From a virus (lineage: Duplodnaviria > Heunggongvirae > Uroviricota > Caudoviricetes), in the IMG/VR virus record IMGVR_UViG_2645727901_000008: a stretch of DNA of 64,000 bases. One strand, given 5' to 3'. Both the position numbers and the translations under genes were made by a program. The number at the start of each line of letters is the position of its first letter. Position 1 is the first letter of the stretch. Below, piece by piece: positions 6,307 through 54,931 of the stretch. Under the pieces are notes generated by a model. The model was not told the DNA's origin. It did not search any database and was given only the letters and a program-made list of their open reading frames with translations.

Positions 6307-6858
6307 TTAAAAAATGGTAGCCCCCGGAATAATGGCCCGGTTTGAGGACATTTTTTCCTCTATCTCCTGCACTCGGGCATATAGCGTGGCTTCATCGGGC
6401 AGATCGGAGTAGTCAAATTTCCCGTCGATGGACGCTCTACGCTGCCGGGCGACATTTCTGACATTGATAAGCGCCTCCAGATATTCCTCCAGCATTCCAA
6501 TGATTGCAGGAGGCACTTGCCATTCATCCAGCTTTCTGTCGCGTAGATTAACCAGATAGAGCATCCGAAAAGGCCAGCGTTCTGAACCTGTTAGCTCTAA
6601 TTCAATAAAGCCGGATAATTCATCCGAATAGACCAACAGGCCATTGTTGTCGGTAACATGAACCAGAGAGAGATAATCTTCTGGCAATGGAATTGCAGTA
6701 CCACCAGCTTTTTCAAGTTTTAACGTTTTCACTACCCCTGCCCTGTCCTGATACGTGGTCAGAGCTTTGATCAGGAAGGCTTTCAGCGTTTCTTCTTCAC
6801 GCACAAGCAGTGGATTAAATCGTGCTTTAACGCTTTCTAATAATTCGGTTGGTGTCAT
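6307..6858 (-). CDS. Hypothetical tail-assembly protein
   Basis: First ATG (6858) with GGAG RBS; the track start at 6897 is TTG. Confidence 0.4.
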   Translation of the reverse strand: MTPTELLESVKARFNPLLVREEETLKAFLIKALTTYQDRAGVVKTLKLEKAGGTAIPLPEDYLSLVHVTDNNGLLVYSDELSGFIELELTGSERWPFRMLYLVNLRDRKLDEWQVPPAIIGMLEEYLEALINVRNVARQRRASIDGKFDYSDLPDEATLYARVQEIEEKMSSNRAIIPGATIF

Positions 6859-6912
6859 CGTGCCTACAACTCCAAAACAAAGATGTTCCCGCCACAAGGG
6901 CGGGAGCGGGGA

Positions 6913-7404
6913 TTATTCTGCCCAGTTGTAAACAATACGCAGAGAAGGTTTAACAACAGCCGTTACGTCTTCGGAAGAGAAGTCCACGGCGTCGGAATAC
7001 ACTTTGCAGTGAGAATATGTGCGGATCAGACCTTTATGGTTACCGCTATTCGATTCAGCCGCCGCCTGTAAGGTAATTTCCAGATATTCTTTTCCGTATA
7101 CCATCTGTTTTACAGCGGCGAGAACTGCGCCTTCGATAGTTTCCGCGCATGTGACCTGAAATTCACCAGAGTTGCGTAATGGTCCGTGCTGGTTGAATTT
7201 CATGCCACCAGGGGCGTAATCCTCCACATCTTCACGTGTCATTTCTGGTAACTGAGCTGTACGAACTAGTACAGACAGATGTTCGTAACCCTTAATGGTC
7301 ATCCAATATTCAGAACCAATAAGTTTTTCGCCTGCAGCCAGGTTTTTATTAAACCGGGATTTTAGAAAGGCCATATCGGCTTTTGTATTTGCAAAACCGG
7401 ACAT
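6913..7404 (-). CDS. Putative tail tube protein (T4 gp19-like size and C-terminus)
   Basis: 163 aa, downstream of the sheath-like gene, GGAG RBS. Confidence 0.45.
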   Translation of the reverse strand: MSGFANTKADMAFLKSRFNKNLAAGEKLIGSEYWMTIKGYEHLSVLVRTAQLPEMTREDVEDYAPGGMKFNQHGPLRNSGEFQVTCAETIEGAVLAAVKQMVYGKEYLEITLQAAAESNSGNHKGLIRTYSHCKVYSDAVDFSSEDVTAVVKPSLRIVYNWAE

Positions 7405-7412
7405 AAATACTC

Positions 7413-8003
7413 CTACACAAAAACAGATGAGATATTGCTACGGTTGATCGATGTGTTACCGCTGCATTGCAGGGTTACCGTGTTATGAGTGAAATAGCCT
7501 TCCGGTGTGCGCGGGGCGTCCAGTTGGTAACTCACGCTTTTGATAACAACGTCGGTAAGGGCTATGTTCCTACCTATGTTTAACGTTACTGTCTCCGGGC
7601 GACGACCGAATGGCGCTACATTGTTCAGTTCCGGCGATTCCATCTTCAGCAATGCTGTAATGGCTGCGTTCACTTCAAGTTGCGCATTCACTGTCGCCAT
7701 GAAATCAATTACCAGATTAAATTCAGGCGGTTGCTGACCTTCCCAAACAAGCATTGAGTTGAAGAGGGTTTTTGTTGTTACGCCGGTTGCGGTCTGAAGC
7801 GTATCTGCAAGAGAGCCAGCCGCAGCGCTAATACCGCCAAGCAAACCTCCTACTGACTGGTTTTCAAATGGTGATTGCCACATTGATGACAGTTCTGCGG
7901 TAGATCCTTCACCGATATAACCGACGACCATATCCTCTGAAGAGAGGATATAAACCTTCATTAACGGACTTATTCCGTCAGGCATTATCGCGCCGCAAAT
8001 CAA
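7413..8003 (-). CDS. Hypothetical tail protein
   Basis: 196-aa ORF in the tail block, TTG start with GGGAG RBS. Confidence 0.4.
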   Translation of the reverse strand: MICGAIMPDGISPLMKVYILSSEDMVVGYIGEGSTAELSSMWQSPFENQSVGGLLGGISAAAGSLADTLQTATGVTTKTLFNSMLVWEGQQPPEFNLVIDFMATVNAQLEVNAAITALLKMESPELNNVAPFGRRPETVTLNIGRNIALTDVVIKSVSYQLDAPRTPEGYFTHNTVTLQCSGNTSINRSNISSVFV

Positions 8004-12681: not shown

Positions 12682-12814
12682 GGTTAAGCCCTAAATTCGG
12701 GCGCGGCGTGAAGGTTCTTTTGACGGGCTAACAATACCTACTTTGTGATTTAGTCAATAGGTTTAGTAAAATAAAATCTATTAACACTCATGTTGTTATG
12801 TGGTTTAATTTTAG

Positions 12815-24121: not shown

Positions 24122-24181
24122 AAAGGTCGATTTATCAGGTATCGAGGGTGCATTGTCTGGAGATTGTGATTTCAATTCATA

Positions 24182-24226
24182 TCCCAACATGGGACTAAAG
24201 TGCTTTACATTGTCCCATATTGGGAC
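24182..24226. promoter_or_regulatory. Two short palindromes upstream of higB (putative HigA operator)
   Basis: TCCCA-ACA-TGGGA and GTCCCA-TAT-TGGGAC inverted repeats. Confidence 0.45.
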
Positions 24227-24256
24227 TACTATACTTTCAGAGAGAAGGAATCTGTG

Positions 24257-24559
24257 ATGAAAATAATTTCGGTAAAAACACTAAGGGATTTCTGGGCGAA
24301 GAATCCCGATGCAGAACAGCCATTAAAGGCATGGGTTGATGAAGCAACAAAGGCTGACTGGAAAAATCCGGCTGAGATCAAAGAACAGTACCGGACAGCC
24401 AGCATCCTTAAAAACAGGCGCGTGGTGTTCAATATTAAGGGAAATGATTACAGGTTAATTGTCGCAATTGCTTATCAGCGAGGATGGATGTTCGTTAAGT
24501 TTATTGGAACACATAAGGAATACGATGCCATTGAAGCGGATACAATAGAACTGGAGTAA
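24257..24559 (+). CDS. higB: HigB-family mRNA interferase toxin
   Basis: 100-aa RelE/HigB-like sequence; toxin-first order with downstream HTH antitoxin. Confidence 0.75.
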   Translation: MKIISVKTLRDFWAKNPDAEQPLKAWVDEATKADWKNPAEIKEQYRTASILKNRRVVFNIKGNDYRLIVAIAYQRGWMFVKFIGTHKEYDAIEADTIELE

Positions 24560-24562
24560 ATC

Positions 24563-24922
24563 ATGAACATTAAACCTATCCGTACAGAACAAGATTATGA
24601 GGCCGCACTGCGTGCGGTCGAACCGATGTTCGATAACGAACCGGAAATGAACACACCGGAAGGCGATTTCTTTGAAGTAATGTGCCTGCTCATTGAAGAG
24701 TACGAGAAAAAGCATTACCCAATTGAGCCACCATCACCTATTGAAGCCATTAAATTCCGTATGGAACAGCAAGGGCTGACCGTGAAGGATCTGGAACCGG
24801 CGATTGGTAAGTCAAATCGAGTTTACGAAGTGCTTAATGGGACACGAAATTTGACGTTACCTATGATTCGTCGTTTACATGCCCAGTTTGGTATTCCACT
24901 GGAAAGTCTGGTTGGTGTTTAA
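24563..24922 (+). CDS. higA: HigA-family HTH antitoxin
   Basis: 119 aa with XRE-type HTH in C-terminal half, 3 nt after the higB stop. Confidence 0.75.
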   Translation: MNIKPIRTEQDYEAALRAVEPMFDNEPEMNTPEGDFFEVMCLLIEEYEKKHYPIEPPSPIEAIKFRMEQQGLTVKDLEPAIGKSNRVYEVLNGTRNLTLPMIRRLHAQFGIPLESLVGV

Positions 24923-24972
24923 GTTTGGCGGTCTGGAGGACCGCTTTTTATCTAAAATAAAAATTAGAAGGT

Positions 24973-25722
24973 TTGATAGCTTGTATGGGCAAAAATTCAT
25001 CAACAGAAAACACATCTACAATTGACTCAATCAAGGGCACAATGGATGAAGCCATAAAAGATAAATTATTTAATAAATTATTTGCATATGTGGTGGTTTC
25101 ATTTTTTGTCGTTAATTGGCAAGAAATACTAATTTTGTTTAAATCTAAATATGATATATACACAACACTGTCTATAGTATGGGTAGGGGATAAATATCAA
25201 ATCCCTTATTTTGGAACCTTCATTGTATCTCCGTTTTTAGCTCACTTTGTGATGCCGTTTATATATGGCACTATTGCGTCCATAGTGATGCCTTATATTA
25301 CTATGCGTATATCAAAACTCACTGGTAGAAATTATGCGCAAATAAGATACATTGACCATGAATTTGACTCAGAAGAGAAAGCAAGAGTAAAGGCGTTGCT
25401 GAGAAACCTAAAGAAAAAAGAGGAAGAGCTTTTAAAATTAGAGGAACAAATAGAAGGTCAACAAAAAATACTGAATACAATCGAAGAAAAGAAGAGAGAG
25501 ATTGAGAGTGCCAGAGTGGCTCTGTATCACGGTATAAAAGTAATTGTTGATATATATAAAGCAAAAGATAAAAGGATTTCCACCAAAGAAGATTTTGCCG
25601 ATTTATTAAAAGCAATTGAAGAAAGTGATTTTTATAAAGACACTGGGTTGTGGGGTATTAATAAATTAATAGATGACGTGGAGACAATATATGAGTCTCA
25701 ATCGACATCAAAGGACAAGTAA
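24973..25722 (+). CDS. AT-rich membrane protein with cytoplasmic coiled-coil
   Basis: Two or three predicted TM helices then Lys/Glu-rich coiled-coil; low GC; start may be ATG 24985. Confidence 0.5.
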   Translation: MIACMGKNSSTENTSTIDSIKGTMDEAIKDKLFNKLFAYVVVSFFVVNWQEILILFKSKYDIYTTLSIVWVGDKYQIPYFGTFIVSPFLAHFVMPFIYGTIASIVMPYITMRISKLTGRNYAQIRYIDHEFDSEEKARVKALLRNLKKKEEELLKLEEQIEGQQKILNTIEEKKREIESARVALYHGIKVIVDIYKAKDKRISTKEDFADLLKAIEESDFYKDTGLWGINKLIDDVETIYESQSTSKDK

Positions 25723-25755: not shown

Positions 25756-26952
25756 TTAAGAACCTTTCTTCACATACTCCATGAACATTTTTTCAGCTTG
25801 TGCAGGTGGTGTTCCTGCCATGACCAGCGCATCAATGAACGCCTGCTTCTTCAGTGCGAACTGATCGGCCAGGCGTTGCTGAAGCTCCTTGTTTTTCTGT
25901 TTCTCACGTTGCAACGCCGCTTCTTTTGCTGCCGCCCGTTTTTTCTGTGCGTCTGACAACTTTCTGGCCTTGGTCAGTTGGTCACGTAGCTTGTCAATCT
26001 TGCCGTTGTCCTTTGCCAGTTTTGTGCTTAAAGCGGCCTGGCGCTTCTGATAGAGCCTCCATTCGCGCTTGGCAGCGTCAACGTTTGTTTTACTGTTGCG
26101 ATTGCGATTAAACTCCCTCTCGTCTTCTTTTGAGAAGTGTTTGGTTGTACGGCGGCGATCGTCACCAAATGCAATTTGCGTTGCGGCCTTTTGTAACGCA
26201 CGAGCAATACTCATTTGCCAACTAGCGGACTGTAACCGCGTCATTGAGTGGATCACGTGTTTACAGGCGACGCCTTGTAGCTTAGGGTTACGAACTTTTG
26301 GATAGGCGTATTCTTTTGGCGGGGCCAGGGCAAAGTTACCCGCAGTAGCGATGTAACGATACCAGTATTGATGACGACCACAGTCACAATCGAAAGACAC
26401 CCGCCCGGCGCACAGTGATTTAGTGATTTTCAGAGCTGATTTATCGTCTTCTGCGATGTCATCGACCATCTGATCCCATTCTTCAAAGCGTATCCGGACG
26501 ATATGGTGCTGGTGGACGGATATATCCGATGCTTCTACGCGGATATGAATCACGTTGTGGCGAAGAGATACGGGTGTAGCTCTTTTGATACCAGATCCGT
26601 CATCCACGGCGTTATTTGCACGCTTAATATCGATTGCCTGGCTGGATGCCACCAGCTGGGCGTATGTGATGCCAGCCGTCTTGCTGTCATATTTTTCGCG
26701 TGTTTTACTCCGTAGCTTTTCGAAACCTTTCAGGTCGTCTCGCGTGAAGAACGTGCCGCCTTTTTTCTTCCCTAACTTGAGAATATCTTCGGCGGATTTG
26801 TTCCTCAGTCTACCTGGCGTCAGCGTCCGGTGAGCTTGTCGGCGCTTACGGGTTTGTTCTTTCCTGATAAGGTCGAATAAACGCGTGAAGTCCTTAGAGG
26901 ACAGGCCGTCAGTGATATAGCGCCCGTCCTGGTTTTTCAGGAAATCAGGCAT
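25756..26952 (-). CDS. SWIM-type zinc-finger protein with basic coiled-coil C-terminus
   Basis: CxCx(n)CxH pattern FDCDCGRH...ACKHVIH; 398 aa. Confidence 0.5.
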   Translation of the reverse strand: MPDFLKNQDGRYITDGLSSKDFTRLFDLIRKEQTRKRRQAHRTLTPGRLRNKSAEDILKLGKKKGGTFFTRDDLKGFEKLRSKTREKYDSKTAGITYAQLVASSQAIDIKRANNAVDDGSGIKRATPVSLRHNVIHIRVEASDISVHQHHIVRIRFEEWDQMVDDIAEDDKSALKITKSLCAGRVSFDCDCGRHQYWYRYIATAGNFALAPPKEYAYPKVRNPKLQGVACKHVIHSMTRLQSASWQMSIARALQKAATQIAFGDDRRRTTKHFSKEDEREFNRNRNSKTNVDAAKREWRLYQKRQAALSTKLAKDNGKIDKLRDQLTKARKLSDAQKKRAAAKEAALQREKQKNKELQQRLADQFALKKQAFIDALVMAGTPPAQAEKMFMEYVKKGS

Positions 26953-27274
26953 TTTCTATCTCCGGTTCCGCGCTCGCGTAATCACGGATCTTGTTCCTCA
27001 GCCATGCCACATCAGGAAGAGTTAACGTGGTCCCGGCGGGCATTTCTTCCATTTCTGACTCATGGCCCACCAGCACCCGGAATACCCAGCGCAAATCTGC
27101 ATTGCCATACGCCCTGTAGGCTGCAAGGTCTGAACGATATACTTCATCAATCTTTATCGTGTACTGGAAATTATCAGAGTGATACTCCGATACCCGCTTA
27201 ATCATTTCCTGGTGAAACAGCGCACGAAAAATATCGTCTTCAATGTACCTATCGTCGAGTCTGCTATAGCCCAT
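26945..27274 (-). CDS. Hypothetical protein
   Basis: 109-aa ORF coupled to the SWIM gene. Confidence 0.4.
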   Translation of the reverse strand: MGYSRLDDRYIEDDIFRALFHQEMIKRVSEYHSDNFQYTIKIDEVYRSDLAAYRAYGNADLRWVFRVLVGHESEMEEMPAGTTLTLPDVAWLRNKIRDYASAEPEIENA

Positions 27275-27467
27275 AACAAAGCCTCTCAGTCATAACATGG
27301 GGGAAACTGTATGCAGGGTGTGAAATGCGAGAAACAGACAGGCCACCAGTTCAGGGGGATGTGGTTCATAAATCCCCTCACTGGTGACAAGTGACTTTCA
27401 TTAATCTTTATGCGGGGGCCAGCTTCATTTGCTGGCATTAGATTAAAAATTAAACGGAGTGAATGAC

Positions 27468-27611
27468 ATGGATGTTATTCTAGAATTGTTAAAGCTTATT
27501 GATCTGTTTATGAACGCCTCATTGACCACTCAAATACTGGCGTCAATATTTTTGTTACTCTTCTACCTGGTATTGAGGGAGTTAACAAAGCTACTAATGT
27601 GATCAAAGTAT
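27468..27611 (+). CDS. Small hydrophobic peptide (47 aa), not in the ORF track
   Basis: ATG preceded by GGAG; hydrophobic core ILASIFLLLFYLVL; 3-prime end overlaps the convergent gene. Confidence 0.3.
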
Positions 27612-28256
27612 CACGGTATCTTCATCAACTTCTTTCCCAGCCAGTGACTTTGGCTGGGAGGTGCCTGCTTTAACTTTTTCATGCCCAATAATGGAAAGGA
27701 ACGAAGCGAGTATGCCTGTTTTTTGCTCTTTCTCGACTGTACCGGTCATCTGCTCTACATAATCTGCACTGGCAACGTTGTGGTATACGGTCGCGTAGCA
27801 ACACAGGATCATCAGAATATGCTCCGGCCTGATATCCTGCCAGTTCACCCTGTAGACTTCTTCTCCGTTACCGTTGTATTCGGTATCAACGATAGAGTCG
27901 GGGATTTCGAAAGCACCTTTGTTATTTTGCGGCAGGGATAATAGTTTCTGGAGTTTTAACTCTCTGTATCTTTCCATCCCGACGATGATTGCTGCTCTTC
28001 CATCGGCATGACGGGTCTTGAGAGTCACCTGACTTGCTCCGGTGCCAGCGGAGATCGTTGGCGTAATTTCGTCTACCAGTACCTTAAATTTGCTTTTCCG
28101 CAGGGCTGCTATAGCTGGAGGAATTTTTTGCTTTTGCTCCAATGCTGACGCGGGAAGGGGTTTTACTTCGTTAATAATGAGAGCACCGTCTTTCAGTATT
28201 GCAGTGAGCATTTGAGGCTTGCTGGTGGTCAGGCTGAATATTGCGATCTTTTCCAT
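27603..28256 (-). CDS. Hypothetical protein
   Basis: ATG 28256 with GGAGGAAGG RBS. Confidence 0.45.
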   Translation of the reverse strand: MEKIAIFSLTTSKPQMLTAILKDGALIINEVKPLPASALEQKQKIPPAIAALRKSKFKVLVDEITPTISAGTGASQVTLKTRHADGRAAIIVGMERYRELKLQKLLSLPQNNKGAFEIPDSIVDTEYNGNGEEVYRVNWQDIRPEHILMILCCYATVYHNVASADYVEQMTGTVEKEQKTGILASFLSIIGHEKVKAGTSQPKSLAGKEVDEDTVIL

Positions 28257-28524
28257 TGTCCTTCCTCCACGGATGACGGATACAAAAAAAGGCCGCACAT
28301 GGCGGCCTGCTTTGGCGTTATGACTCCCTACCGCGCTTCGGCTGAAAGTTAATCGTCAAAAGAACCTTCAACGGGAGCCGTTAGCGCGATGGATTATGTG
28401 CAGTTTGTGATTTCCAAAATAGTGTCAACCACTTTTTGTGGATTTTATTTTTTGACCGAAATTTGGCCTAAATCATGTTGATGTAGTTAATTGTTTTTAT
28501 AACATAAAACTTCATTTTGTTTAC

Positions 28525-29649: not shown

Positions 29650-30267
29650 TCATTTTTGTCGGATCTTTTCCAGCATATTTAATTCATTATCACTTTCTGC
29701 TGCTGAGACGGTTGGCCTCACATTTCCGAAATATTTCCTGTGAGACTCATGACTTATGTATTCACCGACAGTTTCATTCTTGAATATACGAATTTGACAT
29801 ATGCGAGATCCAACAATAAGTTCTACAGGGCTATTCCCATGATTAAATAACTCTAAAGATATACAGCCTCTGTACCCTGGTTGTATCATGGTATTTAATG
29901 AAAGACCAAGCCTTGTATAGCTGCTTCTGGACAATACATCAGCGTAGCAATCTGGTGGCAAACAAACATATTCTAATGTTGTTGCCAGTACCACTTGATT
30001 CGGGTAAACAATGAATCTATCCCCAAGATCTCTCCTTGTTTCCTGGAAAAATGTTCTGATTGGTTGATGAGTATCATTGTTTTTTGATGGAATTAACTCT
30101 ATTGACGGCTTCCTTGTCATAATAGACACTAAAAAATCGTAACCAAGTCTAAGGTCTATGGTGAAGTTCCCAATTTGGTTTTTATTTAGAAGAGGTTCAA
30201 TGAACAACGACTCAGGTTCTTCTGATTCATAATATTGCAGCAATTCAGCTTTGCTTAGGAGATTCAT
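29650..30267 (-). CDS. Standalone dCTP deaminase-like enzyme (dUTPase fold)
   Basis: VLATTLEYVCLP, RSSYTRLGL and IQPGYRGCISLELFN align with E. coli Dcd motifs as recalled; ATG 30267 overlaps the upstream stop (ATGA), GGAG RBS. Confidence 0.7.
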   Translation of the reverse strand: MNLLSKAELLQYYESEEPESLFIEPLLNKNQIGNFTIDLRLGYDFLVSIMTRKPSIELIPSKNNDTHQPIRTFFQETRRDLGDRFIVYPNQVVLATTLEYVCLPPDCYADVLSRSSYTRLGLSLNTMIQPGYRGCISLELFNHGNSPVELIVGSRICQIRIFKNETVGEYISHESHRKYFGNVRPTVSAAESDNELNMLEKIRQK

Positions 30268-31337
30268 TGTGCACTCCATTTTTCAAGAATCATTACGTTT
30301 CGAATCGATTTTTCAACCAAATCATTTATAGTTTTTTCTATGGCTTCTTGTGACAACCCAGACCATATACCCGTAGGTTTTTCCCATTCAGAGCATAAGT
30401 ACTGCCAGCTGCTGTTAATAAAAGCATGCATTTCATTGTGGTCGCGAATAACAAAAGGACGCACATTATCAAAAGCTGATTTCACATCAAGCAAAGGTGT
30501 CGGCAATGTCAAACAAGGAGAAATAATCTGCCCACCATTATGTAAGGCTGATATCACAGCATTGAACATGCCAACAACTGGATTTTCCACTTTGTTCAAA
30601 AAGTCGCTTACAATTTTAACTCTATCTTCTGTGGATGGGTGAGTATAGCTTGCAGGATGAGAGCCAGCTAATTTGTATAAGAAATCTACCCCACTTTTTC
30701 CAATAAATTGGGCACTAAATAGATCTGCAAAATATTCTCTGCAATGATTTATCCAAATAACATCAGGTAGATTACTCCATTCTGGTCCAGGAAGTGTGCC
30801 TTTGTCCTTGGAACGATAGTTAAGACAGGCAAGCTCAGAAATACCTTTGCTAATATCAACGAAATGTCCCAATTCGTGATATAAAGGTATAGAGCATAAT
30901 GGTCGTCTTCTGTACATTTCAGGTAATGAAATCTGAATTAATTCGACATCGAATTTGACATTTAAAACTTCGTCAAATAAAGAATACAAATTCTTGTTTA
31001 CAGACTTAAAATAAAACCCATGCATATCTGGAGATAGGGCTGTGGTTATAAGTGTTTTTTCACTTATCCATTTTTTACAGGCATCATTTAAGCAATAGAC
31101 AATCTCGTAGGGAATTTTCTTTGTAGTACTGCCAGTGAAAAAATTAACTGCATCGGTGATAAAAAAAGTACAATCCGCAATTATTTTATCAGCAACATTC
31201 ACATGGTTTTCATAGAGCTTATCCACCGCTTCTTGTAGAACAGCAAGATATTCATGCATGTCTTTAGAAAAATAGGGAGATTCTGATATCTCCCTTAGCT
31301 TATTTCGAACTAATGTAAGTTGTGTAAATGCAAGCAT
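30264..31337 (-). CDS. HExxH metallopeptidase-like protein (ImmA/IrrE-like HELGH motif)
   Basis: PLYHELGHFVD motif in a 357-aa protein; start overlaps the upstream stop (TAATG). Confidence 0.55.
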   Translation of the reverse strand: MLAFTQLTLVRNKLREISESPYFSKDMHEYLAVLQEAVDKLYENHVNVADKIIADCTFFITDAVNFFTGSTTKKIPYEIVYCLNDACKKWISEKTLITTALSPDMHGFYFKSVNKNLYSLFDEVLNVKFDVELIQISLPEMYRRRPLCSIPLYHELGHFVDISKGISELACLNYRSKDKGTLPGPEWSNLPDVIWINHCREYFADLFSAQFIGKSGVDFLYKLAGSHPASYTHPSTEDRVKIVSDFLNKVENPVVGMFNAVISALHNGGQIISPCLTLPTPLLDVKSAFDNVRPFVIRDHNEMHAFINSSWQYLCSEWEKPTGIWSGLSQEAIEKTINDLVEKSIRNVMILEKWSAQ

Positions 31338-33456: not shown

Positions 33457-33631
33457 ATTGGCAGCCTCCTTTGACTAAGTTAAGGAGCTACCGCGTGAGG
33501 TTCCAATCTCAATGGCGGTAGCACTGACTGGGTTGGAACTACCGGCGTCAAAGGGAACCGGCCTGCCTTTCGGCAGCCCAGCCAGCACTACCATTGATCT
33601 CTGAGCTAAACGCTACGTATGGCTGTGCGAT

Positions 33632-53178: not shown

Positions 53179-54542
53179 TAATCATCCTCCGGCGGTTCTA
53201 TCGCGATATCATCATCTCCGGCGTCATACCCTGCATCAGATACATCATAATCACCGTAAATTTCAGCCGTTGCCGAAGGGTCAATATCCAGCTCTTCGTC
53301 GTTGGCCTCGAATTCTCCAGCTTTACGCTCGCCATTGCGGTCGTAATCTCCGCACCCCAATTCTTCAACAATGGTTGCCACATCCGCCCGGCGCTCTGCC
53401 AGCCATTGCGGATGGTTAGCCTGAAGCGTTGCAAACTCCCTTGCCTCTTTGTCCAGCTGTTCATCATCAACATCATTGACGTCAGAAACAGGTGGTTCGA
53501 GAAGAGTGATAGCTTTCGCCGCGCGCGCCGCGAGGATAGCCGGGACGCTGACCCCCTGGCGCTCGATGTATTCAGCAACACCGATATCATCCAGTTCCTC
53601 GCGCTCACGCATACGTATAGCGGCGGCGATAACTCTGGCTGCGCGTGCGTCAGCGCCAATGCGATATTCAATCTCTTTGCCACGCTGTTCGGCCTGTAGG
53701 CGTGCTAATTCGAGTTTTTCTCTGGCCTCAGCCTCTTTGAATGCTTGCTGGCGAGCGCTCTGACGAAGCTTTTCATCCCCCTGTCGCAGCTTTTGTTCGG
53801 ACTGATATATAGCTGCCAACCTACTGATAAAATCATTCATGTAGTAGGCCGCGTCACTGATTAGACCGAGAAGACGCTGCCCAGGGTGCATTCCTTCTGG
53901 CTCTTTATCGCCCAAGGCGTCTATTTCCGCCTGTAGGCGTTCGGCCTCCTGATCAACAATGCTTTGATACTGAAGTGCGCGCTCTTGCGCCATTTGAATT
54001 GCTAACCGCAGGTGTTCTTCTGCGCCGTTCTTCATCATATCGCGAGCCACATTCGTAGTGGGCAATGTGGCACGCTGCACAGCACCGTCAGGGATCATTG
54101 CAGAAGATCCCTCAATTTTTGGGGCGCTTTTATCTTCTTCGGGGATCATTTTCGCCATTTTTTCGCGCAATGATCTCCTGACAGATTCTTTTATCTCATT
54201 GTTATTATTTGCATTATTTTCATGATCCGAAGTTTTCTTTCTCGGCATACTTCGGAAAGAACCTGCGCCCTGCGAATTGTCAATTTCTGTAAATTTTGTT
54301 TTTTCTGCACCCTCTTCCAGCTTTTTTGTTGCTCTTCCCGCCCGTTTTTTTTCAGGTGATTTGGTGCTTTTTTTTGTTGTCTTTACCTGCGACCGCACCT
54401 CATTTTTTTTCATATTGAGATGCTTTCTGGCTGTATTGAAGCTAAGGCCATGCTCCTCACAGTATTCCTTTACAGTGATCCCTTTTTCTTCACGCAACGC
54501 TATAAAGCGGGCGCGGTGCTCCTCCCAATTAACCAGACTCAT
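53178..54542 (-). CDS. pacA: Terminase small subunit (PacA-like)
   Basis: Upstream of and coupled to pacB; contains a GATC-rich pac-like region. Confidence 0.7.
   Translation of the reverse strand: MSLVNWEEHRARFIALREEKGITVKEYCEEHGLSFNTARKHLNMKKNEVRSQVKTTKKSTKSPEKKRAGRATKKLEEGAEKTKFTEIDNSQGAGSFRSMPRKKTSDHENNANNNNEIKESVRRSLREKMAKMIPEEDKSAPKIEGSSAMIPDGAVQRATLPTTNVARDMMKNGAEEHLRLAIQMAQERALQYQSIVDQEAERLQAEIDALGDKEPEGMHPGQRLLGLISDAAYYMNDFISRLAAIYQSEQKLRQGDEKLRQSARQQAFKEAEAREKLELARLQAEQRGKEIEYRIGADARAARVIAAAIRMREREELDDIGVAEYIERQGVSVPAILAARAAKAITLLEPPVSDVNDVDDEQLDKEAREFATLQANHPQWLAERRADVATIVEELGCGDYDRNGERKAGEFEANDEELDIDPSATAEIYGDYDVSDAGYDAGDDDIAIEPPEDD
54090..54230. other. pac-like cluster of GATC hexamers inside pacA
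   Basis: Five GATC sites in about 135 bp. Confidence 0.4.
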
Positions 54543-54931
54543 AAAGCAACACCACGCTTTTTAACGGCGGCATTCCACAGCTTATTCGCCATGTCCACCA
54601 GCTCTCGTTGCTCTTTTCGCGCCTGTTCGACTGATTTCCTGCTACAGTTTTTAACCAGTAAGCTACCGTATTCAGGCGTGCGCCCGCGCACCTTGAACTG
54701 ATATCCGTTCAGACCATGTAGCCAATATTTTCGTGGATACACACGATCATCCAGCTCACAGATTGCCCTGCTTGAACGAACAAAATGACGAATGATGTTA
54801 GTTACACTTACTCGTGAAACATGGAGATGAGGGTATTTTTCTTTGGCGAGAGTGGTAATTTCAGTGACTGTCAGATAGCAGTCAGCCCTGATCATGATAT
54901 CCGCAATTTCTGCGCTGCTGATTTGTTCCAT
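54539..54931 (-). CDS. lpa: Putative late-promoter activator (Lpa-like, by position)
   Basis: 130-aa ORF directly upstream of pacA with an operator-like site upstream. Confidence 0.45.
   Translation of the reverse strand: MEQISSAEIADIMIRADCYLTVTEITTLAKEKYPHLHVSRVSVTNIIRHFVRSSRAICELDDRVYPRKYWLHGLNGYQFKVRGRTPEYGSLLVKNCSRKSVEQARKEQRELVDMANKLWNAAVKKRGVAL

What the first reader, a model, noticed from the sequence alone, without database searches (positions are those of the whole stretch)
27468..27611. Unannotated 47-aa hydrophobic peptide with a strong RBS
Short ORF below the track threshold, preceded by GGAG, encoding a single TM-like helix, overlapping the 3-prime end of the convergent gene: features of small membrane toxins or holin-like peptides.
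Basis: inference. Interest (0 to 1): 0.4.

Follow-up and report, generated by a model that had tools for sequence, protein, structure and literature searches.

The report
Small phage membrane-peptide gene, late promoter
The flagged short reading frame is a real, conserved 44-codon gene of D6-like phage-plasmids (GenBank already lists it as hypothetical orf77) that encodes a tiny two-helix membrane peptide, sits behind a phage-P1-style late promoter, and has no known function.

Summary
The window is a D6-like (P1-family) phage-plasmid of E. coli.

**The ORF.** It exists, but the coordinates are off. It runs ATG 27468 to TGA 27602 on the + strand and is 44 aa, not 47. GGAG lies 8 nt upstream. 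Its stop abuts the stop of mat (27603) and does not overlap it.

**Real gene.** Two independent comparisons show a strong excess of synonymous changes (8 of 9 and 14 of 21). A diverged allele keeps the length, the frame and the amphipathic pattern. AlphaFold (pLDDT 94) gives an amphipathic helix (residues 2-16) followed by a hydrophobic helix (19-43).

**Already annotated.** It is D6 orf77 (hypothetical) and phrog_38362. PGAP does not call it. No other homologue turned up among 1.84 billion representative proteins, and nothing in Pfam, NCBIfam, PADLOC, PDB or Rfam.

**New here.**
- An invariant 17-nt block upstream carries AAGTGACTT-N4-TAATCT. This matches the P1 late promoters LPmat and LP23.
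- D6's own late promoters use a different box (AAATCACAA-N6).
- The gene lies on the opposite strand to both neighbours, in a variable slot between mat and gene 26. In other lineages that slot holds toxin-antitoxin cassettes.
- Insertion sequences disrupt or uncouple the gene in some plasmids, so it is dispensable.

**Verdict.** A toxin or holin role is plausible but untested, and no defining feature of type I toxin-antitoxin systems or holins was met. Moderate interest.

The parts
27468..27602 (+). Small gene (D6 orf77 homologue): 44 codons plus TGA. The product has an N-terminal amphipathic helix (residues 2-16) and a C-terminal hydrophobic, transmembrane-type helix (residues 19-43).
   Evidence: ORF and translation. 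D6 annotation. phrog_38362. Purifying selection. AlphaFold pLDDT 94. Amphipathicity p 0.013 and 0.002.
27456..27459 (+). Shine-Dalgarno GGAG, 8 nt upstream of the ATG
   Evidence: Sequence. Present in most alleles, replaced by TAGTG in the L007/L033 lineage.
27418..27436 (+). 5'-UTR hairpin GCCAGC-ttcattt-GCTGGC near the predicted 5' end of the mRNA
   Evidence: Predicted in both the MFE and the centroid fold. Kept in the diverged type-B alleles as CCAGCTC/GAGCTGG, and with G.U wobbles in L049. The wobbles fit an RNA structure on the + strand.
27389..27407 (+). P1-type late promoter: 9-bp near-palindromic '-22' box AAGTGACTT (27389-27397), then tcat, then -10 TAATCT (27402-27407). It points at the small gene. 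The predicted transcript start is near 27414.
   Evidence: The box is identical to the annotated -22 regions of P1 LPmat and LP23, with the same 4-nt spacing to a TAnnnT -10. The best P1 matches of this region are LP23, LPmat and LPpac. The 17-nt block ACAAGTGACTTTCATTAA is invariant in 33 distinct sequences. The motif occurs once in the window and once in the D6 genome.
27306..27326 (-). Candidate D6-type late promoter for gene 26 (ATTTCACAC cctgca TACAGT). It is divergent from the small gene's promoter, with its box 52 nt upstream of the gene-26 ATG.
   Evidence: Relaxed scan, 3 mismatches to the D6 box. D6-type consensus. Sequence kept in type-B loci. Weak evidence.
26945..27274 (-). Gene 26 homologue (baseplate wedge subunit), left neighbour
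27603..28256 (-). mat homologue (maturation control protein), right neighbour. Its stop codon directly abuts the small gene's stop.
28393..28413 (-). D6-type late promoter of mat (AAATCACAA actgca CATAAT). Any transcripts from it that pass mat's stop would be antisense to the small gene.

Best explanation
This is a real accessory ('moron'-type) gene of D6-like phage-plasmids. It is dispensable and confined to this lineage. It encodes a 44-residue membrane peptide.

Shown:
- The frame is under purifying selection.
- The product is predicted with high confidence as a 15-residue amphipathic helix joined by a short break to a 25-residue hydrophobic helix ending in RELTKLLM.
- The gene lies alone on the opposite strand to both neighbours, in the spacer between mat and gene 26.
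- Directly upstream is a strictly conserved element that matches phage P1 late promoters in box sequence, spacing and -10 form. A conserved 5' hairpin and, in most alleles, a Shine-Dalgarno sequence follow it.

Inferred:
- A late-promoter activator of the Lpa type switches on a transcript that starts near 27414. The activator could be the resident one cross-recognising the box, or that of a P1-type phage.
- The peptide inserts through its C-terminal helix. Its basic C-terminus faces the cytoplasm and its acidic N-terminal amphipathic helix lies at or in the membrane.
- It acts there, probably as an oligomer, as a membrane-perturbing accessory factor for lysis timing or exclusion of other phages.
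- The phage's own late transcription through mat would run antisense to it and could damp it.
For: Identity of the element:
- 98.7% identical to phage D6. Found only on plasmids, in 100 of 5426 complete E. coli genomes and in 119 PLSDB plasmids of Escherichia, Salmonella and Shigella.

Coding:
- dN/dS is 0.03-0.43 in all pairs.
- Synonymous excess appears in the ORF frame at p 7.5e-5 and 1.4e-5. The only weaker echo is in the antisense frame that shares its wobble positions.
- No other frame is stop-free.
- The type-B allele (MNIFNKLIDLLNKFISASLTQQVSTSVF...) has diverged over the first 28 codons. It still keeps the length, the frame and the polar face of the helix.

Structure:
- pLDDT 94.2, helices 2-16 and 19-43.
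- Hydrophobic moment of the N-helix is 0.52 and 0.70, above shuffles.

Promoter:
- The P1 annotation gives LPmat = AAGTGACTT cagt CAGAAT and LP23 = gtcaacAAGTGACTTtcaaTAAAAT.
- The window has gtgacAAGTGACTTtcatTAATCT. Type B shares 18 of 18 nt with LP23.
- The block is invariant while its flanks diverge.
- The 9-bp inverted repeat is described as the Lpa-binding site of the 11 P1 late promoters (PMC10695390).
- An Lpa homologue is encoded in the window at 54539-54931.

Accessory status:
- The spacer is about 70 bp with no ORF in L038. It holds a different toxin-antitoxin cassette in L032, and higBA plus the small gene in L004, L009, L024 and L030.
- IS insertions in L003 and L031 and a frameshift in L006 show the gene can be lost.
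Against: - No expression, localisation or phenotype data exist.
- The resident Lpa homologue is only 31% identical to P1 Lpa.
- At least 10 resident late operons use a different box, AAATCACAa-N6. Activation of the P1-type box by the resident activator is therefore doubtful.
- In type-B alleles the same block doubles as a fair sigma-70 promoter (TTGACT-17-ATTAAT), so expression might be constitutive there.
- The SD is missing in one lineage.
- There is no homology to any holin, toxin or exclusion protein.
- A Leu-rich ORF in 35% G+C DNA looks hydrophobic partly because of composition.
Confidence: 0.5

Rival explanations
1. Sensor-and-kill exclusion module. The P1-type late promoter is a decoy that the resident D6-type activator does not read but the Lpa of an incoming P1 or P7-type phage does. 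P1 infection of a D6-type lysogen then switches on the membrane peptide, which kills or de-energises the cell (abortive infection) or blocks the invader. During the element's own lytic cycle, antisense late transcription from the mat promoter keeps it off.
For: - The P1-type box with N4 spacing and a -10 occurs once in the whole D6 genome and once in the window, exactly here.
- Resident late promoters are of a different type.
- The resident Lpa is 31% identical to P1 Lpa.
- The box is invariant across lineages whose flanks have diverged, which argues for present-day function.
- Box and ORF are present or absent together.
- The slot otherwise holds toxin-antitoxin cassettes.
- P1-like and D6-like elements share host species.
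Against: - It rests entirely on promoter sequence.
- Cross-recognition by the resident Lpa is not excluded.
- Toxicity is not shown.
- No known defence family matches.
- The type-B promoter may be constitutive.
- The gene is often tolerated when disrupted, which could mean little benefit.
Confidence: 0.13
2. Type I toxin-antitoxin-like addiction module. The peptide is a membrane toxin. Its antitoxin is antisense RNA, either the 3' extension of the convergent mat transcript or an unrecognised small RNA, and the pair stabilises the plasmid prophage.
For: - Small hydrophobic peptide.
- Located on a low-copy plasmid prophage that already carries higBA and phd-doc.
- The stop-to-stop convergent arrangement, with no terminator between the genes, guarantees antisense overlap.
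- Recurrent IS disruption is common for toxin genes.
Against: - mat has a late promoter, so its RNA would be absent in the lysogen, which is when an antitoxin is needed.
- No convincing antisense promoter or terminator was found. There is only one weak 8-of-12 hexamer match inside the ORF.
- No Rfam family matches.
- The mRNA is not unusually structured (z = -0.65).
- No similarity to Hok, Ldr, TisB, Ibs, Fst or other families.
- The upstream promoter is of the late type, not constitutive, in type A.
Confidence: 0.1
3. The RNA is the main product. The late promoter fires a transcript that runs antisense into mat, with no terminator for at least 440 nt, and tunes Mat and gene 26 expression. The short ORF is a secondary passenger.
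For: - Stop codons abut, and there is no terminator until a weak candidate at 28042-28064.
- The promoter block and the 5' hairpin are the most conserved non-coding parts.
Against: - Codon-level selection shows the protein itself is constrained.
- Lineages without the cassette (L032, L038) do without such regulation.
Confidence: 0.08
4. Chance ORF. AT-rich, T-rich spacer DNA happens to stay open, and its conservation reflects the mat 3' end and promoter elements.
For: - 35% G+C and 15 Leu of 44.
- PGAP does not call it.
- The A/B divergence boundary falls inside the ORF at about 27541.
Against: - Synonymous excess in two independent comparisons, with a third-position bias of 7/5/20.
- Length, frame and amphipathic pattern are retained in the diverged type-B half.
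- The ORF is intact in 39 of the 43 sequences examined. The exceptions are one IS insertion (L003), one frameshift (L006) and two lineages that lack the cassette (L032, L038).
Confidence: 0.05

Closest known systems
Phage D6 orf77 (YP_009914754.1) / PHROG phrog_38362
   Same: Same gene. It sits at the same position between gene 26 and mat, is 44 aa long and is 95.5% identical. The profile match covers the full length.
   Different: Nothing structural differs. The database entries carry no function, promoter or topology.
Phage P1 Lpa-dependent late promoters (LPmat, LP23, LPpac, and the divergent LP26/LPpmgL pair upstream of gene 26)
   Same: The 9-bp near-palindromic box AAGTGACTT is identical to that of LPmat and LP23. 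The flanking gAC...TCA, the 4-nt spacer and the TAnnnT -10 also match. Its position next to gene 26, pointing away from it, mirrors P1 LPpmgL.
   Different: It sits in a D6-type genome whose other late promoters use AAATCACAa-N6 and whose Lpa is only 31% identical to P1 Lpa. The downstream gene is unrelated to pmgL. There is no -10 on the gene-26 side of the box.
Type I toxins (Hok/Gef, TisB, Ldr, Ibs, ShoB, Fst and others)
   Same: Size of 19-60 aa, one hydrophobic helix, a plasmid or prophage location, and antisense overlap with another transcript.
   Different: There is no sequence relation, no dedicated antisense RNA gene and no fold-back mRNA. The promoter is of the late type, and the peptide has an extra amphipathic N-terminal helix.
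Holins and antiholins of P1-type phages (LydA, LydB, LydC)
   Same: A small membrane protein with a charged C-terminus and a late-promoter context.
   Different: There is no homology. It is not next to an endolysin or the lysis cassette (the lydA/lydB homologues are at D6 30.7-31.5 kb). It has only one hydrophobic helix and is dispensable.
Prophage 'morons' that encode small membrane exclusion proteins (for example HK97 gp15, T4 Imm, P22 Sie; named from general knowledge, not tested here)
   Same: An opposite-strand insertion with its own promoter inside a late operon region, variable presence among relatives, and a small membrane product.
   Different: There is no sequence relation. Morons are usually expressed from the prophage, whereas this one has a late-type promoter.

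Membership tests
D6 orf77 / phrog_38362 family | Full-length sequence match to the family profile | tested here: met
   E 3.1e-28, residues 1-44 of 44. 95.5% identity to D6 orf77.
D6 orf77 / phrog_38362 family | Same genomic position (between gene 26 and mat, opposite strand) | tested here: met
P1-type Lpa-dependent late promoter | 9-bp inverted-repeat box centred near -22 that matches known P1 boxes | tested here: met
   AAGTGACTT at 27389-27397 equals the annotated -22 regions of P1 LPmat and LP23.
P1-type Lpa-dependent late promoter | -10 hexamer 4 nt downstream of the box, with no good -35 | tested here: met
   tcat then TAATCT. The -35 position reads TCACTG in type A. Type B has TTGACT at -35, as P1 LPmat has TTGACA.
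P1-type Lpa-dependent late promoter | Cognate activator encoded by the same element, with the same box used at its other late operons | tested here: not met
   The resident Lpa homologue is 31% identical. Ten resident late operons use AAATCACAa-N6 instead. The P1-type motif is unique in D6.
P1-type Lpa-dependent late promoter | Transcription dependent on Lpa | not testable with these tools
   Needs reporter or RNA experiments.
Type I toxin-antitoxin system | Small hydrophobic toxin ORF | tested here: met
   44 aa, GRAVY 1.43, hydrophobic helix 19-43.
Type I toxin-antitoxin system | Dedicated antisense or divergent small RNA gene with its own promoter and terminator | tested here: not met
   No terminator and only one weak hexamer pair on the minus strand. 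No Rfam hit. Antisense RNA could come only from mat read-through.
Type I toxin-antitoxin system | Membership of a known toxin family | tested here: not met
   Pfam, NCBIfam and PADLOC give nothing at E <= 10. An exhaustive phmmer search finds only the same family.
Type I toxin-antitoxin system | Toxicity on overexpression, neutralised by the RNA | not testable with these tools
   Experiment needed.
Holin / antiholin | Small membrane protein with at least one transmembrane helix and a charged C-terminus | tested here: inconclusive
   One hydrophobic helix plus one amphipathic helix, C-terminal RELTK. Topology was not determined.
Holin / antiholin | Location in the lysis cassette next to the endolysin | tested here: not met
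   The neighbours are baseplate gene 26 and mat. The lydA/lydB homologues are about 40 kb away in D6.
Holin / antiholin | Homology to a holin family | tested here: not met

The most novel reading that the evidence does not exclude
A prophage-borne 'decoy late promoter' defence. D6-type phage-plasmids keep a perfect P1-type Lpa box, foreign to their own late regulon, fused to a small membrane peptide. The late activator of an invading P1 or P7-type phage would then trigger membrane damage or exclusion. The element's own convergent late transcription would silence the gene during its own lytic cycle.
Probability: 0.13. Interest if true: 0.75.

Novelty: new member of a known kind. Interest (0 to 1): 0.4.

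Why it matters
Automatic annotation routinely misses small membrane proteins of phages and plasmids. Here PGAP omits a gene found on the D6-like plasmids of about 2% of complete E. coli genomes (100 of 5426, nearly all with the ORF intact) and in Salmonella and Shigella.

Showing that the frame is under protein-level selection makes it a concrete candidate for lysis control, exclusion or addiction. So does its position behind a late promoter of the P1 type inside a genome whose own late promoters differ.

If the promoter responds to the activator of a different phage, this would be a simple, testable case of one phage-plasmid sensing a competitor's late transcription programme.

The work also yields a consensus for D6-type late promoters. 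That consensus helps annotate this widespread group of plasmid prophages.

Tried and rejected
- **Known families.** Pfam, NCBIfam and PADLOC scans of three alleles at E <= 10 gave nothing.
- **Protein searches.** A profile search of 5.8 billion proteins and an exhaustive phmmer search of 1.84 billion representatives found only the same family in the same context.
- **Phage records.** tblastn found only D6, with no copy in P1-type phages.
- **Structure.** A PDB profile search and Foldseek against viral models gave no meaningful match.
- **RNA families.** Rfam at a permissive threshold gave only chance-level snoRNA hits and a weak isrK hit.
- **Simple sigma-70 promoter upstream.** The consensus scan found none upstream in this allele, only a hexamer pair inside the ORF.
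- **Relation to P1 PmgL.** PmgL occupies the equivalent position in P1, but there is no similarity.
- **The 47-aa GTG start.** Rejected because the GTG is not conserved.
- **D6 orf76 (window 27311-27394) as a partner or leader ORF.** Rejected. The higBA insertion point cuts it in type-B loci, and it overlaps both promoter elements.
- **A second P1-type hit at 59509-59501.** Rejected as a late promoter. It is a TTGATT-17-TAGAAT sigma-70 promoter flanked by repressor-operator-like motifs.
- **Papers not held.** The D6 genome paper (PMC5800970) and the P1 genome paper (PMC523184) were not available.

Full report
**What the window is.** The region 26900-28400 is 98.7% identical to Escherichia phage D6, a P1-family plasmid prophage. 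It matches about 99% to plasmids in 100 of 5426 complete E. coli genomes and never matches a chromosome. In PLSDB, 119 plasmids of Escherichia, Salmonella and Shigella carry the region. The neighbours of the finding are gene 26 (baseplate wedge, 26945-27274, minus strand) and mat (maturation control, 27603-28256, minus strand).

**The observation.**
- The open frame ends at TGA 27600-27602.
- From ATG 27468 the product is 44 aa: MDVILELLKLIDLFMNASLTTQILASIFLLLFYLVLRELTKLLM. The 47-aa figure needs GTG 27459, which lies inside the GGAG and is GCG in several relatives.
- GGAG (27456-27459) lies 8 nt before the ATG.
- The next triplet after the ORF's stop, TCA at 27603-27605, is mat's stop on the other strand. 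The two genes abut and do not overlap.
- mat and gene 26 are co-directional. The small gene is therefore the only plus-strand gene in the 328-bp spacer.
- GenBank D6 already lists it as orf77, a hypothetical protein. It matches phrog_38362 over its full length. PGAP does not annotate it.

**Is it a gene?** I collected the locus from plasmids, IMG/VR contigs and one GTDB genome.
- The frame is intact in 39 of the 43 sequences examined, with 19 distinct nucleotide versions. The other four are an IS insertion (L003), a frameshift (L006) and two lineages that lack the cassette (L032, L038).
- Pairwise dN/dS is 0.03-0.43.
- In two phylogenetically separate comparisons the changes are mostly synonymous. 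Window vs L008 gives 8 synonymous and 1 non-synonymous (p 7.5e-5). L004 vs L009 gives 14 and 7 (p 1.4e-5).
- No such excess appears in the other frames. The exception is a weaker echo in the antisense frame that shares wobble positions. All other frames contain stops.
- Variable sites among type-A alleles fall 7/5/20 by codon position.
- A second allele class (type B: L004, L009, L024, L030, L049) has diverged strongly over the first 28 codons (MNIFNKLIDLLNKFISASLTQQVSTSVF...). It keeps exactly 44 codons. Eight of the ten conserved residues after the start Met are encoded by different codons.

I conclude that the protein is under selection. The chance-ORF reading is essentially excluded.

**The product.** AlphaFold on a 19-sequence alignment gives pLDDT 94 with helices at 2-16 and 19-43. 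The first helix is amphipathic, with a hydrophobic moment of 0.52 in type A and 0.70 in type B (p 0.013 and 0.002 against shuffles). Its polar face (positions 2, 6, 9, 12, 16) is kept between allele types. The second helix is uniformly hydrophobic through residue 36 and ends in RELTKLLM. By the positive-inside rule the C-terminus should be cytoplasmic. That is an inference.

**Relatives.** None was found outside this family.
- Pfam, NCBIfam and PADLOC gave nothing.
- A profile search of 5.8 billion proteins gave 37 hits, all the same peptide or mis-called extensions of it.
- An exhaustive phmmer run on 1.84 billion representatives gave 8 hits, all the same family.
- PDB gave nothing.
- Foldseek against viral models gave nothing.
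- Phage genomes other than D6 have no copy.
- Where I looked up contexts, they are the same gene 26 / ORF / mat arrangement.

**The spacer is a variable slot.**
- In L038 (Mat 78% identical) mat is followed by about 70 bp with a terminator-like hairpin and then gene 26. There is no small gene.
- In L032 a different RelE/ParE-type cassette fills the slot. There is no small gene there either.
- In type-B loci a higBA cassette sits between gene 26 and the small gene.
- In CP125036 (L003) an IS200/IS605-family element has inserted after TTAC inside the ORF.
- In L031 another insertion separates the promoter from the ORF. L006 is frameshifted.

The gene is therefore accessory and dispensable.

**The upstream element.** An alignment of 33 distinct upstream sequences shows one invariant 17-nt block, ACAAGTGACTTTCATTAA. 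Its flanks differ between allele types.
- The annotated P1 genome gives the '-22 region' of LPmat as AAGTGACTT, followed by 4 nt and the -10 CAGAAT. LP23 reads gtcaacAAGTGACTTtcaaTAAAAT.
- The window reads gtgacAAGTGACTTtcatTAATCT (box 27389-27397, -10 at 27402-27407). Type B shares 18 of 18 nt with LP23.
- A short-word BLAST of the 69-nt region against 52 kb of P1 returns LP23, LPmat and LPpac as the top hits.
- The 9-bp inverted repeat is described as the Lpa-binding site of the 11 P1 late promoters (PMC10695390).
- The -10 lies only on the plus-strand side, so the promoter points at the small gene.
- In P1 a single box upstream of gene 26 serves the divergent promoters LP26 and LPpmgL. The small gene occupies the pmgL position but is unrelated to it.
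- Downstream, a hairpin (27418-27436) is retained in both allele types. One variant has G.U pairs that work only in plus-strand RNA.

**A twist.** The element's own late promoters look different.
- Ten D6 late operons carry AAATCACAa-ACTnnn-nAtanT, with the box 45-157 nt upstream of the start codon. They are mat, 7, upfC, 23, pmgB, R, lydA, ddrB, prt and orf16.
- The motif occurs 11 times in D6 against 1.85 expected from shuffles.
- The P1-type box with N4 spacing and a -10 occurs once in D6 and once in the window, only here.
- The resident Lpa homologue (54539-54931) is 31% identical to P1 Lpa.
- A weaker D6-type motif at 27326-27306 (minus strand) may serve gene 26.

The small gene thus carries a late promoter that appears foreign to its own genome. 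The block is strictly conserved, and it is present or absent together with the ORF.

**Mechanism.** The best-supported reading is a small bitopic membrane peptide made when an Lpa-type activator fires this promoter. It would act on the inner membrane as a non-essential accessory factor. Which activator fires the promoter, and what the peptide does, is not shown.

- There is no antisense RNA gene.
- The mRNA is not hok-like (z = -0.65).
- There is no family membership.
- The obvious antisense source, mat, is itself a late gene.

The 'holin' idea fails on location and homology. Both remain possible as 'works like' descriptions.

The most novel reading not excluded is a decoy P1 promoter that lets a D6-type prophage respond to P1-type invaders. 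I give it about 0.13.

**Verdict.** This is a real gene, already catalogued as hypothetical, and its function is unknown. The new points are the evidence for coding selection, the two-helix architecture, the variable slot rich in toxin-antitoxin cassettes, and the P1-type late promoter in a D6-type background. Interest is moderate.

Noticed in passing
window 28290-28413 (minus strand), upstream of mat: The D6-type late promoter of mat is followed by a leader of about 125 nt that is conserved even in the most distant relative (Mat 78% identical). The leader has a long hairpin (CGCGCU...AGCGCG) and an intrinsic terminator (28308-28290) immediately before the mat start. It looks like an attenuator, an antitermination target or a late small RNA.
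   Followed up: partly
window 28354-28369 (minus) and 12710-12725 (plus): The 16-mer GAAGGTTCTTTTGACG occurs exactly twice. One copy is in the mat leader. The other lies on the opposite strand in the leader of the major-capsid (gene 23) late transcript, so the two leader RNAs would be perfectly complementary over 16 nt. Alternatively both copies bind the same protein.
   Followed up: partly
window 12743-12751, 24164-24172, 28405-28413 (all minus strand); D6 genome-wide: A consensus for D6-type late promoters, AAATCACAa-ACTnnn-nAtanT, lies upstream of ten late operons. It is distinct from the P1 Lpa box.
   Followed up: yes
window intergenic gaps starting at 33457, 34847, 38206, 49100, 50223, 59300, 60775, 61833: The recurrent motif TGTTAGAAA occurs in eight intergenic regions next to early-type sigma-70 promoters. 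These are probably operators of the C1-like repressor of this phage group.
   Followed up: no
window 27275-27602 and loci L004, L009, L024, L030, L032, L038, L049: The spacer between mat and gene 26 is a cargo slot. It may be empty, or hold the small gene alone, higBA plus the small gene, or a different RelE/ParE-type cassette with a palindromic operator.
   Followed up: yes
L003 (CP125036.1) 6410-7745; L031: An IS200/IS605-family element with a TnpB-like ORF is inserted directly 3' of TTAC inside the small gene, without a target duplication. A different insertion in L031 lies right after codon 2 and separates the promoter from an intact copy of the ORF.
   Followed up: partly
window 27311-27394 (plus): D6 orf76 (27 aa) overlaps the two divergent promoter elements. 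The higBA insertion point interrupts it in type-B loci. It is probably not a gene.
   Followed up: partly
window 29650-31337 (minus): A 209-aa ORF and an overlapping 357-aa ORF replace the simB-like region of D6. RefSeq annotates the 209-aa ORF as dCTP deaminase in a near-identical plasmid. This may be an anti-phage nucleotide-depletion module in the variable region next to mat.
   Followed up: no
window 24200-25722 (plus): A HigB/HigA pair and a 249-aa protein with an N-terminal membrane region and a coiled coil lie on the opposite strand between tail genes 7 and 25. This is another opposite-strand cargo block inside the late tail operon.
   Followed up: no
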